Assembly: GCF_009914755.1 (NCBI RefSeq)
Contig: NC_060932.1
Direction: 5' to 3' (one strand)
Source: the human T2T-CHM13v2.0 reference genome, Homo sapiens
Length of the DNA stretch: 64,000 bases
Below are positions 35,961 to 41,883 of this stretch, piece after piece; position 1 is the stretch's first letter, and each line of letters begins with the position of its first letter. A program made the position numbers and the translations under genes. A model generated the notes under the pieces. That model was not told where the DNA came from. It did no database searches and saw only the letters and a list, made by a program, of their open reading frames with translations.

Positions 35961-37201
35961 ACCAAATGTGCTATGTCTGAGGACTCAATCAGATGTGACC
36001 TCTGAATGTGATTATAATTGACAAAATGCTGGGAGTCACTCCCAGGAGATAAGTTATATTATAATAACCTAATATGTTAAAAGAACTTTCTTTAAAGTAG
36101 GAAGGGAAGTAAGAAAAGCTCATATTCATTGACTGCCTTACTTACATTTTTTGTTCTAACTTGCTTTGGAGACTAATATGGATGCTTGGATAAGTTCCAT
36201 TTCAAGCTTGTGGACCATTTCAGACTGGGGAGATGGAGAGAGTTGGGAGAATATTGACACTCATTTAGTATTACTCTTGATGATGACTTTACTGAAGGAT
36301 AAAAGAGGTACAGAAAACTTAAATGTAGGTTTCACCATCATACTGAGTGTCAGGCCTGTGTGCTAGGAGTTTTCCAAATGCTATCTCAATCAGTTTTTCT
36401 TTTTCCTTTCCTCCCTCCCAGTGCACGTGTAGTTCTCTTTAAATCACAAATGGAAGAGATGCAGCTCAAACTAGCAAGAGCAAAACAGGGAATGTTTTGG
36501 TTTATGTAACTAAAGGAGTTGGGAGTAGCTTCTTGCACAACCAGATCTAGGTTCTCAAATGATGTCATTGGCAATTTGTATTTTTCCATCTCTTGGCACT
36601 GTTTTCCTCTCTGTTGGTTTTATTTTCTCATTGCTGCCTCCTTATGGAGGCTGGTGAGATCTCTGGGGTCATGTTCTACCAGAGTAGTCACGCTAATAGC
36701 AGAGGAAGTTCTTTCCAAGAGCGGCAACAAAAGCCTCAGGTTTGGGCCTGAATCTGTTAGGATGGTTTTGGCCACAAGTAATTCAGATGTTGGATTAAAG
36801 GGCCTTACTTTTCTTATATAGCAAGAAACTCAGAGGTAGGGGCAGTTCCAGAGTTAGTTAACTCAGGAGACCAAGGATGTTAGAGCATTTGGTTAGGTTC
36901 TCTATGAATTTCTTGATCTTCCCCTTATAGTTTCATACTATCAGACTATAGCACCCAGCATAACATCTTCACATGACAATGCCCAAAGGCAGGAAGGAAT
37001 AAGTCCCTGCTTTGTGTTTTCTCTTGAGAGTGTGGAAAAACTCTCCGGAAGTCACTGAACAGACCTCTCCTATGTCTCCTGGGTCAGAGTTACATCACAT
37101 GCTCACTCTTTGCCAATCCTTTCCAAGGGGAATACAATTACAAGTATATTTCATTTTACTGCACTTTGCATATGGTGAACTTTTTAAAATTTTTTTATTT
37201 T

Positions 37202-37692
37202 AAGGAGGAGAGAGTTTAATAGGCAAGATAGAAAGGGGAAGAAAGAAGGAAGAAGCTGTCCTGTACAGCGACAGAGGGAGAGGGGCTCCAAAGCCGAGAG
37301 AGGTAACCAACTCCACCTGCCATGGATACCAGCCAGGTATATGAAGAGGCTGGAGGAGGCAGTGTTTGATTTGCATAGAGCTCAGGGAATTGGTTTGACC
37401 AGGCATGTCATTTATGTAACCTTTGAAAAAAATGGCCCTCCCACCCTAGCGTTTTAAAGATATGCAAATTCAGGGTACCATGATGTTCTACACACATGGG
37501 GATATGTGGGGGCCGCCATGTCAGCAGAAACGTGGGGCAAGGGCAAGAAGGCCGCAGGAATTGCCATGTTGGGTGGACCCAGTTTCTAATGGCCTGGCTC
37601 TAAGTGGAGCTTTACAAGAAACTTTACTGGAGATGCTTTAAAAAATGAAAACTTCCCAAGGACCCCTTTTCCTCTCTATCTGCCTAAAATAA
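37202..37692 (-). mobile_element. ERV1 LTR fragment (MER61/LTR9 group), U3-R only
   Basis: Minus strand ATTATTTTAGGCAGATAGAGAGGAAAAGGGGTCCTTGG...ATGCAAAT...CCTATTAAACTCTC; stops 13 nt after ATTAAA. Confidence 0.75.
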
Positions 37693-37980
37693 TTTTTTTT
37701 TTTGAGATGGAGTTTCATTCTTCTTTTTTTTTTTTTTTGCCCAGGCTGGAGTGCAATGGCACGATCTTGGCTCACTGCAACCTCTGCCTGTTCAAGTGAT
37801 TCTCCTGCCTCAGCCTTCCAAGTAGCTGGAATCACAGGCGCCCACCATCATGCCCAGCTAATTTTGTGTTTTTAGTAGAGATGGGGTTTCACCATGTTGG
37901 CCAGACTGGTCTTGAACTCCTGACCTTAGGTGATCCACCTGCCTCGACCTTCCAAAGTGCTGGGAATACTGCGCCCAGCC
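37693..37980 (-). mobile_element. AluSq/Sp-like with small deletions and an internal T-run
   Basis: GAGTTTCA.TCTT and GTGCAATGGC diagnostics; ~13-nt deletion near the 5' end. Confidence 0.93.
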
Positions 37981-38009
37981 AAAAGATGGTGAACTTTTTA
38001 CAAATTGTG

Positions 38010-38993
38010 TCTTCAATTCTGTGAAGGCTGAGAGAGATGAGGAAAATGCAGAAGAAAACTTGGAAGCTAGAAGAGGTTGGTTCATGAGGTTTGAGAAAAG
38101 AAGCCATGTCTATAACATAAAAGTGCAAGATGAAGCAGCAAGTGCTGATGTAGAAGCTGCAGCAAGTTAGCAAGTTAGCTAGAACATCTGGCAAAGATCA
38201 TTGATGGAGGTGGCTACACTAAATAAATTTCTAATGTAGACAAAACACCCTTATATTGGAAGAAGGTGCCATATAGGACTTCATAGCTAGAGAAGAAAAG
38301 TCAATGCCTGGCTTCAAAGCTTCAAAGGACAGGCTGACTCTCTTGTTAGGGGCAAATGCAGCGTTTACTTTAAGTTGAAGCCAGTGCTCATTTCCCATTC
38401 AGAAAATCATATTGCACTTAAGAATTATGCTAAATCTACTCTGCCTGTGCCCTAGAAATGGAAGAGCAAAGCCTGGATGACAGCTCATCTGTTTACAGCA
38501 TGGTTTACTGAATATTTTAAGCCCACTGTTAAGACCTAAAGAAAAGATTTCTTTGAAAATAGTACTGCTCATTGACAATGCACCTGGTCACCCAAAATCT
38601 TATGGAGATGTAGAAGGAGATTAATGCTATTTTCATGCTTGTTAACACAACATCCATTCTACAGCCCATGGATCAAGGAGTAATTTTCTCTTTGAAGTCT
38701 TATTATTTAAGAACTACATTTCATAAAGCTACAGCTGCCATAAATAGTGATTCCTTGGATGGATCTGGGCAAAGTAAATTGAAAAACTTCTGGAAAGGAT
38801 TCACCATTCTAGGCACTATTAAGAAGATTTGTGATTCATGAGAGGAGGTCAAAATATCAACATTAACAGGAGTTTGAAAGAAGTTGATGCCAACCCTCAT
38901 GGATGACTTTGAGGGGTTCAAGACTTCATTGGAGAAAGTAACTGCAGATGTGCTGAAAATAGCAAGAGAACTAGAATTAGAAGTGAAGGCTGA
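38010..38993 (+). pseudogene. Tigger1 pogo-type DDE transposase remnant
   Basis: ORF 38635-38841 [14 protein letters not shown]...[15 protein letters not shown]; multiple stops and frameshifts. Confidence 0.9.
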
Positions 38994-39168
38994 CAGATTT
39001 TATGACTAAGGCTTCAAAGGCAAATGCAACAAAAAACAAAAATAGACAAATGGGACTTAATTAAACTAAAAAGCTTTTGCATAGCAAAAGAAATAATCAA
39101 CAGAGTGAACAGACAACCAACAGAATGGGAGAAAATATTTGCAAACTAAGCATCTGACAAAGGACTGA

Positions 39169-39553
<385 letters not shown>

Positions 39554-40021
39554 TCAAAGGAGATGAACAGACATTTTTCAAAAGAAGACATACAAATGGC
39601 CAAAAAACATGAAAAATGCTCAATATCACTAATCACCGGAGAATGCAAATTATAACTGCAATGAATAGCATCTTACAACAGTTAGGATAGCAATTATTAA
39701 AAAGTAAAAAACAAAACAAAACAAAAAAGCCAAAACAACAACAACAAACAACAGATGTCGGCTAGGAAGCAGAGAAAAGGGAACACTTATACACTGTTGA
39801 TGGGAATGTTAAATTGGTACAACCTTTATGGGTAACAGTATGGAGATTTATCAAAGAACTAAAAATAGAACTACTACATTCTATCCAGCAATCCCACTAC
39901 TGCAAAAAGAAATAATTATATCAAAAAGATACCTGCACTCATATGTTTATCATAGCATTATTCACAATAGCAGAGATATGGAATTGACCTAAGTATCCAT
40001 TAATGGATGATTATATATGGC

Positions 40022-40040
40022 ATCTATCTATCTATCTATC

Positions 40041-40078
<38 letters not shown>

Positions 40079-40092
40079 ATCATATATCTATC
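40022..40092. repeat. (ATCT)n tetranucleotide STR
   Basis: (ATCT)4 ATC (ATCT)9 followed by degenerate units. Confidence 0.97.
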
Positions 40093-41883
40093 ATGGAATA
40101 ATACTTAGCCATAAAAAAGAGTGAAATCATGTCTTTTGCAGCAACATGGATGGAACTGGAGGCCATTATCTTAAGTGAAAGAACTCAAGAGAAGAAAGTC
40201 ATATACTGTATAATCTCACATAAGTGGGTGCTAAATCATGGGTACACATGAACAGAGTGTGGAATAATAGACCCTAGAGAAGTGGAAGGGTGGGAGTGAG
40301 GAAGGGAGTGAGGGATGAGAAATTACTTAATGGGTACAGTGTACACTATTCAGGTGATGGATACACTGAAAGCCCAGACTTCAGCACTATGCAATGTATC
40401 CATGTAACAAAACTGCCTTTCTACCCACTAAGTTAATTTTTTTAAAAAAGAAGTAGAGCCTGAAGATGTGACTTAATTGCTGCAATTTCTTGATAAAATT
40501 TTAATGCATGAAGAGTTACTTCTTAAGAATGAACAAAGAAAGTGGTTTCTTGAGATGAAATTTATTCCTGGTGAAGAGGGTGTGAACACTGTTGAAATGA
40601 CAACAAAGTGTTTGGAATATTCCGTAAGCTTAATTGGTAAAGTAGCAGTAGAACTTGGGGGAAGACTGACTACAATTTTTAAAGAGATTCTAAGGTGGGT
40701 AAAATACTATCAAGCAGAAACACATGCTACAGAGAAATCTTTTATGAAAGAAAGAATCAATTGTGCAGTAATCTTCAATGTTGTCTTATTTTACAAAATT
40801 GCTACAGCCACCCCAACCTTGATCAACCACCACCTTGATTACTTAGCAGCCATCAACACTGAGGCAAGACCTTTCACCAGTAAAAAAAGATTACCACTCA
40901 CTGATAGCTCAAATAATCATTACGATTTTTTAGCAATAAAGTAATTTTAAATCAAGGTTTGTACGTTTTTTAGACATAATGCTATTGTACACAGTATACT
41001 ACAGTTTAGTGTAAATATAACTGTTATATGCACTGGAAACATTTAAAAATTGTGTGACTTGCTTAATTGTGGCATTAGCTTTATTGTAGTGGTCTGAAAT
41101 TGAACTTATGATATCTCTGCGGTATTCCCATACCTCGATAATTTTAAGCTTATTAACATTTATCTCTTGTGTCCATGGATGTTGCTTAAGAACTAAAGAA
41201 AATCAGAGTTCAGTTAGCAAAGAAGAAGGGGTGAACTGGAACGTGGTTTGTAGGTAAGTACCCAGCCATATCCCAGTGTCTCACTGGATTAACTCGGTTA
41301 TGTATTCATTCCTGAACCTATCACGATGACCACTCGTACTCACATGCCTCCCTGTGGAGCTGTGGAAATGGTGGTCATTGTGTTAGGTAGAGGTATTATG
41401 TCAGTTCTGCCCAAGTCACATAAACTGAGAGCAGAAGAGATTGGATCTCTTGTTATTCTATGTCTCCTAGGCTAACTGTCATACCCAGAAGAAGCATAGT
41501 TTTGTTTTGTTAGATCCTTGACCCAATTTTTAGTTTTAAAAAAGGGGGATCCTGTTTCTGTCATTTAATCTTACTCCAAGATTTTGGGTAGCTCATAAAC
41601 ATTTTAGCGTCCCCATAGAAAGTGCGTTAGGTGGTCAAGAATAAAGGAAAGCGTATGTTAAATAGGATCCCTCATTACAGAAGACATGTTATAAGCTGCT
41701 CAACAAAACGCTGTTATTATGGACCATCTGCATGAAAATGGAAATATCTGTTAGAGTCACTTATTTTAATGATACTTGGTGTTGTGAAATTTCACTGTTA
41801 TTCTGCTTCTTTGCTTTGATATATCTTTCGCGAAGTTTCCTTTTAATAATCCTCTATAGGCTGGGTGCGTTGGCTCATACCTG

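What the first reader, a model, noticed from the sequence alone, without database searches (positions are those of the whole stretch)
37172..38000. Alu plus ERV1-LTR chimera retroposed as one polyadenylated unit
Seen: a perfect 15-bp direct repeat ATGGTGAACTTTTTA (37172-37186 and 37986-38000) brackets ~800 bp inside Tigger1. On the minus strand the insert reads: 4-5 extra nt, a near full-length AluSq/Sp, its A-tail, ~490 bp of LTR, ATTAAA (37215-37220), 13 nt, then a second decayed A-tail. The right repeat ends TTTTT/A, an L1-endonuclease-type site. The LTR has no TG...CA ends, no U5 and no 4-5-bp TSD of its own. Established: L1 TPRT gives 10-20-bp TSDs and A-tails; 3' transduction is well known for L1 and SVA and much less so for Alu. 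Inference: an RNA spanning an Alu that sat near the 5' end of a MER61/LTR9-group LTR was cleaved at the LTR poly(A) site and retroposed here. T4-T7 runs just after the Alu should stop Pol III, so a Pol II transcript is more likely. It is either an Alu 3' transduction, a retrocopy truncated at the Alu start, or one member of an unrecognised composite family.
Basis: partly seen in the sequence, partly recalled or inferred. Interest (0 to 1): 0.8.

Follow-up and report, generated by a model that had tools for sequence, protein, structure and literature searches.

The report
Alu-plus-LTR retrocopy made by LINE-1
An old LINE-1-made DNA copy of an RNA that carried an Alu joined to most of a retroviral LTR; it is an ordinary product of known copying processes and has no sign of function.

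Summary
A perfect 15-bp direct repeat (37172-86, 37986-38000) brackets, on the minus strand, 5 extra nt, an S-type Alu, an A11 tail, about 495 bp of LTR, ATTAAA and a short A-rich tail.

The LTR belongs to a gamma-type (ERV1) family. Against 19 other copies it lacks the first ~20 nt and the last ~85 nt (U5). It stops at the family's poly(A) site, where 83 other genomic copies also end in A-runs.

The Alu-LTR junction is not peculiar. It lies at an L1-endonuclease hot spot (TT|AAGAAATTATTTT) where I found 9 independent Alus and 2 other retrocopies in other LTR copies, each with its own TSD. The TTTT before the window's Alu matches the end of such a TSD.

Best reading (about 0.55): a Pol II transcript of an LTR that already carried an Alu was retroposed by L1, and the cDNA ended 4 nt upstream of the Alu. 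Rival (about 0.25): ORF2p switched template from LTR RNA to Alu RNA.

I found no source locus and no sibling, so this is not a composite family. The insert is not inside Tigger1; that fragment starts at 38010. Interest is low.

The parts
37172..37191 (.). Left target-site duplication: perfect 15-mer at 37172-37186, probably extending to 37191 (AAATT) with a 1-nt indel
   Evidence: family D3: 28 nt, 82% identical
37190..37197 (-). Terminal decayed poly(A) tail (sense T + A7). 37190-37191 may belong to the TSD instead.
   Evidence: same end point as the A-tailed copies L005, L006 and L013 and 83 genomic copies
37198..37692 (-). ERV1-type LTR piece, U3 plus R only. It lacks the first ~20 nt and the ~85-nt U5. 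ATTAAA lies at 37215-37220.
   Evidence: class
37693..37703 (-). A11 tail of the Alu, abutting LTR nt TTATTTTAGG at the family's L1-endonuclease hot spot
37704..37980 (-). S-type Alu body, 277 nt, with a 13-nt deletion over the A-box region, a 5-nt deletion and an internal A15 run
   Evidence: 12 of 198 non-CpG sites and 13 of 31 CpG sites differ from the majority of 86 Alus
37981..37985 (-). Five extra nt, CTTTT. The TTTT matches the last 4 nt of the 13-nt TSD (AAGAAATTATTTT) seen at two other Alu insertions in this LTR.
37986..38006 (.). Right target-site duplication: perfect 15-mer at 37986-38000, probably extending to 38006
38010..38998 (.). Context only: 5'-truncated Tigger1-like fragment that starts 3-9 bp to the right of the TSD and continues at 40449-41100

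Best explanation
This is one LINE-1 target-primed reverse transcription event. It copied a polyadenylated Pol II transcript that ran through an ERV1-type LTR and was cleaved at that LTR's own poly(A) site.

The source LTR (a 3' LTR of a provirus, or a solo LTR inside a transcript) already carried an S-type Alu. That Alu had been inserted earlier by ordinary TPRT at the LTR's recurrent L1-endonuclease site, TT|AAGAAATTATTTT (LTR nt 16|17), making a 13-nt TSD.

The cDNA, or its 5' joining, ended 4 nt upstream of the Alu. Only TTTT of the Alu's upstream TSD copy was therefore carried along, plus one filler C.

Shown: the TSD, the tail, the truncation at the poly(A) site, the missing U5 and LTR start, and the hot spot.

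Inferred: that the Alu and the LTR were contiguous in the template RNA. The source locus itself was not found.
For: 1. TPRT hallmarks are present: a 15-bp perfect repeat (20/21 bp with one indel) and a terminal A-rich tail.

2. The 3' end is the family's R/U5 boundary. Three of 19 aligned copies (L005, L006, L013) stop at the same CTCCTTAAAA and continue as A-runs, with env and a polypurine tract upstream. L1 therefore often retroposed RNAs of this family.

3. The Alu-LTR junction sits at a site where genomic Alus insert again and again. Nine other LTR copies carry an Alu there: L022, L026, L027, L028, L031, L036, L041, L042 and L083. Four or five are Y-type and four S-type. TSDs are 11, 12, 13, 14 or 16 nt. 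A cyclophilin processed pseudogene (L003) and another polyadenylated retrocopy (L082) sit at the same site.

4. I wrote the 5' junction expected in a source before seeing any such locus. It gave exactly 2 genomic matches and 0 in the reversed control.

5. The four T before the window's Alu equal the last four nt of the 13-nt TSD at those two loci.

6. One-nt fillers are common: 5' extranucleotides occur in 14.6% of 5'-truncated L1 and 12.4% of full-length Alu insertions (PMC2912911, Table 4 passage).
Against: 1. No source locus was found. The best other LTR copy is 84% identical (40 of 699 first-look candidates scored). The two closest copies have no Alu at the site (L084 and L085). The junction patterns gave only Y-type Alus or unrelated loci.

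2. A cDNA end within 5 nt of the Alu start is a coincidence, roughly 0.2-0.5% by my estimate, whereas template switching predicts a full-length Alu.

3. The G of AAGAAA that should follow the Alu tail is absent (A11 then TTATTTT). It is kept in about 10 of the 11 other insertions at this site.

4. The fifth nt is C, not the A expected from the LTR.

5. Only 4 nt link the 5' end to the LTR.
Confidence: 0.55

Rival explanations
1. A chimera made during TPRT or just before it. ORF2p began on the poly(A) of an LTR-terminated RNA, copied about 495 nt, and at the A-rich AAGAAA switched template to the poly(A) tail of a separate Pol III Alu RNA, copying it to its 5' end. Alternatively the two RNAs were ligated first. 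CTTTT would then be untemplated filler.
For: - The architecture matches the catalogued Alu/LINE-1 chimeras: 452 events, Alu mostly full-length and in sense, 5' of a truncated partner, one TSD, mostly AluJ/S of early primate age (PMC13174262, section 12 read).
- It explains the full-length Alu at the very 5' end.
- It explains the missing G: a switch after copying only AAA, with microhomology to poly(A).
- 5' extranucleotides occur in 12.4% of full-length Alu insertions.
- No source locus was found.
Against: - The junction falls exactly where genomic Alus sit in 9 other LTR copies. Under this model that is coincidence, apart from the shared A-richness.
- The filler happens to be TTTT, the end of the TSD predicted by the rival model.
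- The catalogued chimeras have LINE-1 as partner, not an LTR RNA.
- By my rough likelihoods this model is 1.5 to 15 times less likely than the best explanation.
Confidence: 0.25
2. Two separate events at this locus. First a 5'-truncated LTR retrocopy inserted with the 15-bp TSD. Later an Alu inserted at its 5' edge.
For: This LTR site attracts L1-mediated insertions. Only orthologues could show the order of events directly.
Against: - The Alu has no TSD of its own. The upstream sequence ...CACCATCTTTT and the downstream TTATTTTAGG share only TTTT.
- A hot-spot insertion would leave the whole AAGAAATTATTTT upstream, as in 8 of the 9 other Alu-bearing copies.
- The hot-spot nick site itself (TT|AAG) is absent from the window's copy.
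Confidence: 0.07
3. Alu-driven 3' transduction, or a member of a mobile Alu-LTR composite family analogous to SVA.
For: The composite resembles SVA in outline: an Alu part plus an LTR-derived 3' end that supplies the poly(A) signal.
Against: - The insert starts 5 nt upstream of the Alu.
- T4, T6 and T7 runs follow the Alu, and the A-box region is deleted.
- The 3' end is a Pol II poly(A) site.
- No sibling was found among the 43 LTR matches, the 94 and 13 pattern matches, or the 5 exact junction matches. Every other Alu-bearing copy is an independent insertion into a resident LTR or ERV retrocopy.
Confidence: 0.04

Closest known systems
HERV-W-type processed pseudogenes (L1-retroposed ERV RNA)
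   Same: The 3' LTR is U3-R only, lacks U5, is followed by poly(A) and is flanked by an L1-type TSD. These signatures are listed in PMC5537654, section 2 passage.
   Different: The ERV family is different: the LTR bears no resemblance to my recollection of the HERV-W LTR, a point not tested here. The copy is truncated inside the LTR, so no internal ERV sequence is present. An Alu occupies the 5' end.
Alu/LINE-1 chimeric insertions (Law and Burns 2026, PMC13174262)
   Same: A full-length, sense-oriented S-type Alu with its A-tail lies 5' of a 5'-truncated polyadenylated partner, all within one TSD.
   Different: The partner is an LTR-terminated Pol II RNA, not LINE-1. The junction coincides with a genomic Alu-insertion hot spot, and 4 nt of a plausible Alu TSD precede the Alu. 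Both points suggest the parts were already joined in genomic DNA.
Processed pseudogene / 5'-truncated retrocopy carrying an embedded Alu from its parent transcript
   Same: The mechanism proposed as best explanation: TPRT of a Pol II RNA, 5' truncation, a TSD of 15-21 bp and an A-tail.
   Different: The parent locus is not identified. The truncation point falls almost exactly at the Alu start.
SVA composite retrotransposon
   Same: An Alu-related 5' part and an LTR-derived 3' part that supplies the poly(A) signal, mobilised by L1 (description in PMC13174262, and my own knowledge).
   Different: No VNTR, the Alu is in sense and full length, and the LTR is ERV1 rather than HERV-K. This is a single copy and shows no amplification.

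Membership tests
L1-mediated (TPRT) retrocopy | Target-site duplication of about 7-20 bp flanking the whole insert | tested here: met
   Perfect 15-mer found twice; 0 of 100 shuffles matched this. It extends to 20/21 nt with one indel.
L1-mediated (TPRT) retrocopy | Poly(A) tail at the 3' end of the insert, next to the TSD | tested here: met
   Sense AAAA T AAAAAAA at 37201-37190; short and decayed.
L1-mediated (TPRT) retrocopy | Nick at a TTTT|AA-like endonuclease motif | tested here: inconclusive
   The nick is CTTTTT|A if the TSD is 14-15 nt, but then AAA between the TSD and the T-run is unexplained. It is AAATT|G if the TSD is 21 nt. Only 40% of catalogued chimeras show the motif.
ERV processed pseudogene (HERV-W type) | 3' LTR ends at the R/U5 boundary and is followed by poly(A) | tested here: met
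   The window stops at CTCCTTAAAA, as do L005, L006 and L013 and 83 genomic ends. 256 ends continue into U5.
ERV processed pseudogene (HERV-W type) | Colinear internal ERV sequence upstream of the 3' LTR | tested here: not met
   The LTR is cut about 20 nt from its start and is preceded by an Alu, not by env and a polypurine tract.
Integrase-made solo LTR or provirus | TG...CA termini and a 4-6-bp TSD | tested here: not met
   Both LTR ends are missing relative to 16 of 19 copies. The TSD is 15-21 bp.
ERV1 (gamma-type) LTR family | Internal region of the family encodes a gamma-type Env | tested here: met
   L005:1086-1307, directly upstream of a sister LTR, matches Pfam TLV_coat at 27.6 bits (cut-off 22.5), E 1.6e-6. 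The MER61/LTR9 name could not be tested because no repeat library is available.
Template-switch / RNA-ligation chimera (Alu/LINE-1 type) | Full-length sense 5' RNA copy joined to a 5'-truncated polyadenylated partner inside one TSD | tested here: met
Template-switch / RNA-ligation chimera (Alu/LINE-1 type) | The two parts are not contiguous in any genomic source | tested here: inconclusive
   No source was found in this assembly. However, the same junction type exists at 9 other LTR copies, and other primate genomes could not be searched.
Composite retrotransposon family (SVA-like) | Several copies with the same ends and junction but different TSDs | tested here: not met
   No sibling. All other Alu-bearing copies are independent insertions.
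Alu 3' transduction by Pol III read-through | Copy starts at Alu +1 and the transduced stretch has no Pol III terminator | tested here: not met
   There are 5 nt upstream of the Alu, and T4, T6 and T7 runs lie within the LTR piece.

The most novel reading that the evidence does not exclude
The insert is a true RNA-level chimera. L1 ORF2p switched from an ERV1 U3-R RNA to an Alu RNA, or the two RNAs were ligated. This would extend the recently catalogued Alu/LINE-1 chimeras to a non-LINE, Pol II partner. It would also come from an ERV1 family that, like HERV-W, was mobilised by L1 on a large scale: 83 A-tailed, U5-less ends against 256 ordinary ends.
Probability: 0.25. Interest if true: 0.45.

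Novelty: new member of a known kind. Interest (0 to 1): 0.25.

Why it matters
The locus itself matters little. It is one old, fixed, intergenic retrocopy with no sign of function.

Its value is as a worked example. An apparent Alu-LTR 'composite' is accounted for by two ordinary L1-driven steps, and the prediction from that reading (the junction in a source LTR) was borne out elsewhere in the genome.

Two by-products may interest people who work on transposable elements:
- One site in this ERV1 LTR has taken at least 11 independent L1-mediated insertions.
- About a quarter of the detectable 3' ends of this family are A-tailed and lack U5. This sits uneasily with a review's statement that HERV-W is the sole HERV group mobilised by L1 (PMC5537654, abstract).

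Tried and rejected
Source and sibling searches.
- I searched the whole assembly with the 491-nt LTR piece, with 3' junction patterns and with 5' junction patterns.
- One search gave 13 matches. Two were the known C1 and C21 loci. Ten were examined: 4 are plain LTRs without an Alu and 6 are Alus without an LTR. One (C23:47979392) was not fetched.
- The two closest LTR copies were fetched; neither has an Alu at the site.

Empty-site check through paralogues failed. The left flank is unique in the genome: only the window itself and one 50-nt match.

I looked for TSDs around three A-tailed ERV copies (L005, L006, L013). There was no repeat of 10 nt or more within the sequence held upstream of the LTR (about 1.7 kb), so their 5' ends lie beyond the fetched DNA.

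Dating could not separate the models.
- The window LTR differs from 19 copies by a mean of 14.1%, against 14.8% among those copies.
- It has private differences at 21 of 413 conserved columns, within the range of the others.
- The Alu's non-CpG divergence is 6.1%, against a median of 6.9% for 86 Alus.

Naming the LTR family failed. Four LTR motifs were found in no paper, and a search on MER41 with processed pseudogenes gave only general reviews (listing only).

The two-step insertion, Pol III transduction and composite-family readings were considered and given low odds (see the rival explanations).

Full report
**Observation.**
The 15-mer ATGGTGAACTTTTTA occurs exactly twice in the 64-kb window, at 37172-37186 and 37986-38000. 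The chance expectation is 0.02 matches, and none of 100 shuffles gave two.

Read on the minus strand, the bracketed DNA is:
- CTTTT (37985-37981);
- an Alu body of 277 nt (37980-37704);
- A11 (37703-37693);
- an LTR-like stretch (37692-37198) containing ATTAAA (37220-37215), then 13 nt, then AAAA;
- T plus A7.

Rfam gives two sub-threshold Metazoa_SRP matches on the minus strand, the two arms of a dimeric Alu, plus Alu-derived mir-1268 and mir-1285 matches.

Against the majority of 86 other Alus the element is S-type in its left arm. It differs at 12 of 198 non-CpG sites and 13 of 31 CpG sites, which is ordinary: the median non-CpG divergence of the 86 is 6.9%. It has a 13-nt deletion over the A-box region, a 5-nt deletion and an internal A15 run. 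The subfamily label (Sq/Sp-like) rests on diagnostic positions that I recall, not on a library.

**The direct repeat is probably longer than 15 nt.**
After the left 15-mer the plus strand reads AAATT before the T-run. After the right 15-mer it reads CAAATT. A 21-nt TSD with one single-base indel explains why AAA sits between the 15-mer and the complement of the poly(A) tail. A 15-nt TSD does not explain it. This is inference. Kojima (PMC2912911, passages) also reports that many TSDs can be extended when one substitution is allowed.

**The insert is not inside Tigger1.**
- The right flank matches Tigger1-like copies only from window 38008-38012 onward: 39 of 39 non-self matches and 24 of 24 loci.
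- Those copies continue for hundreds of bases upstream among themselves, where the window does not follow them.
- The window's Tigger1 fragment runs 38010-38998 and resumes at 40449-41100. No upstream part lies between 30 and 46 kb.
- The left flank (36780-37186) is unique in the assembly.

The insertion therefore lies 3-9 bp outside the truncated edge of the Tigger1 fragment.

**The LTR.**
The 491-nt piece matches at least 42 other places in the assembly at 76-84% identity over long stretches. Forty of 699 first-look candidates were scored.

In an alignment with 19 copies plus flanks:
- At least 16 of 19 begin about 20 nt further upstream (TG...AGGAGTTATTAAGAAATT...).
- Sixteen of 19 run about 85 nt past CTCCTTAAAA into a U5 that ends in CA.
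- Three (L005, L006, L013) stop at the same point as the window and continue as A-rich tails. Upstream they have internal ERV sequence and a polypurine tract.

An ORF just upstream of the L005 LTR matches Pfam TLV_coat (27.6 bits, cut-off 22.5). The family is therefore gamma-type, which is ERV1. The name MER61/LTR9 could not be tested.

Genome-wide, a 34-nt pattern ending in an A-run at this point has 83 matches. The equally long pattern continuing into U5 has 256, both with 3 or fewer mismatches. RNAs of this family were therefore often retroposed by L1, and the window's 3' end is that same poly(A) site.

**The Alu-LTR junction.**
If the Alu had been inserted into a source LTR by TPRT at TT|AAGAAATTATTTT, two things would follow:
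- the Alu tail would be followed by (AAGAAA)TTATTTTAGG;
- the Alu would be preceded by the TSD copy ending ...TTATTTT.

I searched for that predicted 5' junction and found exactly two loci, C21 and C1, with none in the reversed control.

Inspection of these and of other loci with A-runs before the LTR motif showed nine LTR copies with an Alu at this nick: L022, L026, L027, L028, L031, L036, L041, L042 and L083.
- The Alus are of different types, Y-like and S-like.
- TSDs are 11, 12, 13, 14 or 16 nt.
- The LTR 5' end lies upstream in 8 of 9. L022 is the exception.
- U5 or an ERV poly(A) end lies downstream where I could see it.

They are therefore independent insertions, not copies of one composite.

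Two further L1 products sit at the same site:
- A cyclophilin processed pseudogene in L003, with a Pro_isomerase match of 81 bits.
- Another polyadenylated retrocopy in L082.

Among the 95 listed zero-mismatch LTR 5' regions, 4 have such an insertion. Only 100 of that call's 255 matches were listed, and the window's own copy was not among them.

**Mechanism.**
That both parts arrived in one L1-mediated event seems about 90% likely to me. There is one TSD, one terminal tail and no separate TSD for the Alu.

Two readings remain for how the parts were joined.

(a) Co-transcript. A Pol II RNA from an LTR already carrying an S-type Alu at the hot spot was cleaved at the LTR poly(A) site and retroposed, and the copy ended 4 nt upstream of the Alu.
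- For: this explains the junction position and the TTTT before the Alu, which is the end of the 13-nt TSD seen at L041 and L042.
- Against: it needs a coincidental 5' end, the loss of the G of AAGAAA (kept in about 10 of 11 other events) and a filler C. The source was not found.

(b) Template switching or RNA ligation. This is the mechanism proposed for the 452 Alu/LINE-1 chimeras of Law and Burns (PMC13174262; section 12 and passages read).
- For: it explains the full-length Alu at the 5' end and the missing G.
- Against: the hot-spot coincidence and the TTTT are left to chance.

My rough likelihoods favour (a) by 1.5- to 15-fold. I give (a) 0.55 and (b) 0.25. The individual factors in that estimate are my own and not measured.

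Dating does not separate the two. The window LTR is as diverged as its relatives: 14.1% against 14.8% mean pairwise, with 21 of 413 conserved columns private. The Alu is of ordinary S-type age.

**Readings given low odds.**
- Two separate insertions at this locus (0.07). The Alu lacks its own TSD, and the nick site itself is missing.
- Pol III-driven Alu 3' transduction. There are 5 nt upstream of the Alu, T4/T6/T7 runs follow it, and the 3' end is a Pol II poly(A) site.
- An SVA-like composite family. No sibling was found in any search.

The last two together get 0.04.

**Comparison with what is known, and verdict.**
The element works like a 5'-truncated processed retrocopy of an ERV or LTR transcript. 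The HERV-W signatures are listed in PMC5537654 (passages). It resembles the Alu/LINE-1 chimeras in outline. It is a new instance of a known kind, old, fixed and intergenic, so interest is low.

**What could not be done here.**
- Orthologous primate loci.
- RepeatMasker/Dfam naming.
- The supplements of PMC13174262.

Noticed in passing
LTR nt 16|17 (TT|AAGAAATTATTTT) in loci L003, L022, L026, L027, L028, L031, L036, L041, L042, L082, L083; the window's own junction is at 37692/37693: One site near the 5' end of this ERV1 LTR has taken at least 11 independent L1-mediated insertions: 9 Alus of Y and S types, a cyclophilin processed pseudogene and one other polyadenylated retrocopy. TSDs are 11-16 nt. 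Four of 95 listed zero-mismatch LTR 5' regions carry one.
   Followed up: partly
Genome-wide; examples L005, L006, L013, L082, L083, L085, L042: This ERV1 family has many U5-less, A-tailed 3' LTR ends with env and a polypurine tract upstream: 83 pattern matches against 256 ends continuing into U5. These are L1-type processed pseudogenes. A review abstract (PMC5537654) calls HERV-W the sole HERV group mobilised by L1. TSDs of three examples were not found within the held upstream sequence (about 1.7 kb). The family name is unknown here.
   Followed up: partly
window 38010-38998 and 40449-41100: The Tigger1-like copy is 5'-truncated at about 38010 and is split by about 1.45 kb of inserted DNA (38999-40448) that includes an Alu at about 39217-39523.
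   Followed up: partly
window 37704-37980 (minus strand): The Alu lacks 13 nt covering the A-box region and has an A15 run in place of part of its 3' end. Whether these changes arose before or after retroposition is unknown.
   Followed up: no
L022 (C12:69.09 Mb): This LTR copy has an Alu at the hot spot but no recognisable LTR 5' end upstream of it, and a second Alu about 90 nt further in. U5 is present, so it is not a retrocopy. It may reflect Alu-Alu recombination or a target-site deletion.
   Followed up: partly
output: The window's own LTR 5' region should match the pattern with 0 mismatches but is not in the listed zero-mismatch rows. Pattern counts from this tool may therefore miss sites next to long A-runs.
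   Followed up: no
window 37809-37860 and 37881-37941 (minus strand): Sub-threshold Rfam matches to mir-1268 (53.4 bits, gathering score 83) and mir-1285 lie inside the Alu. Both are Alu-derived miRNA families, so this is expected and not evidence of a miRNA gene.
   Followed up: no
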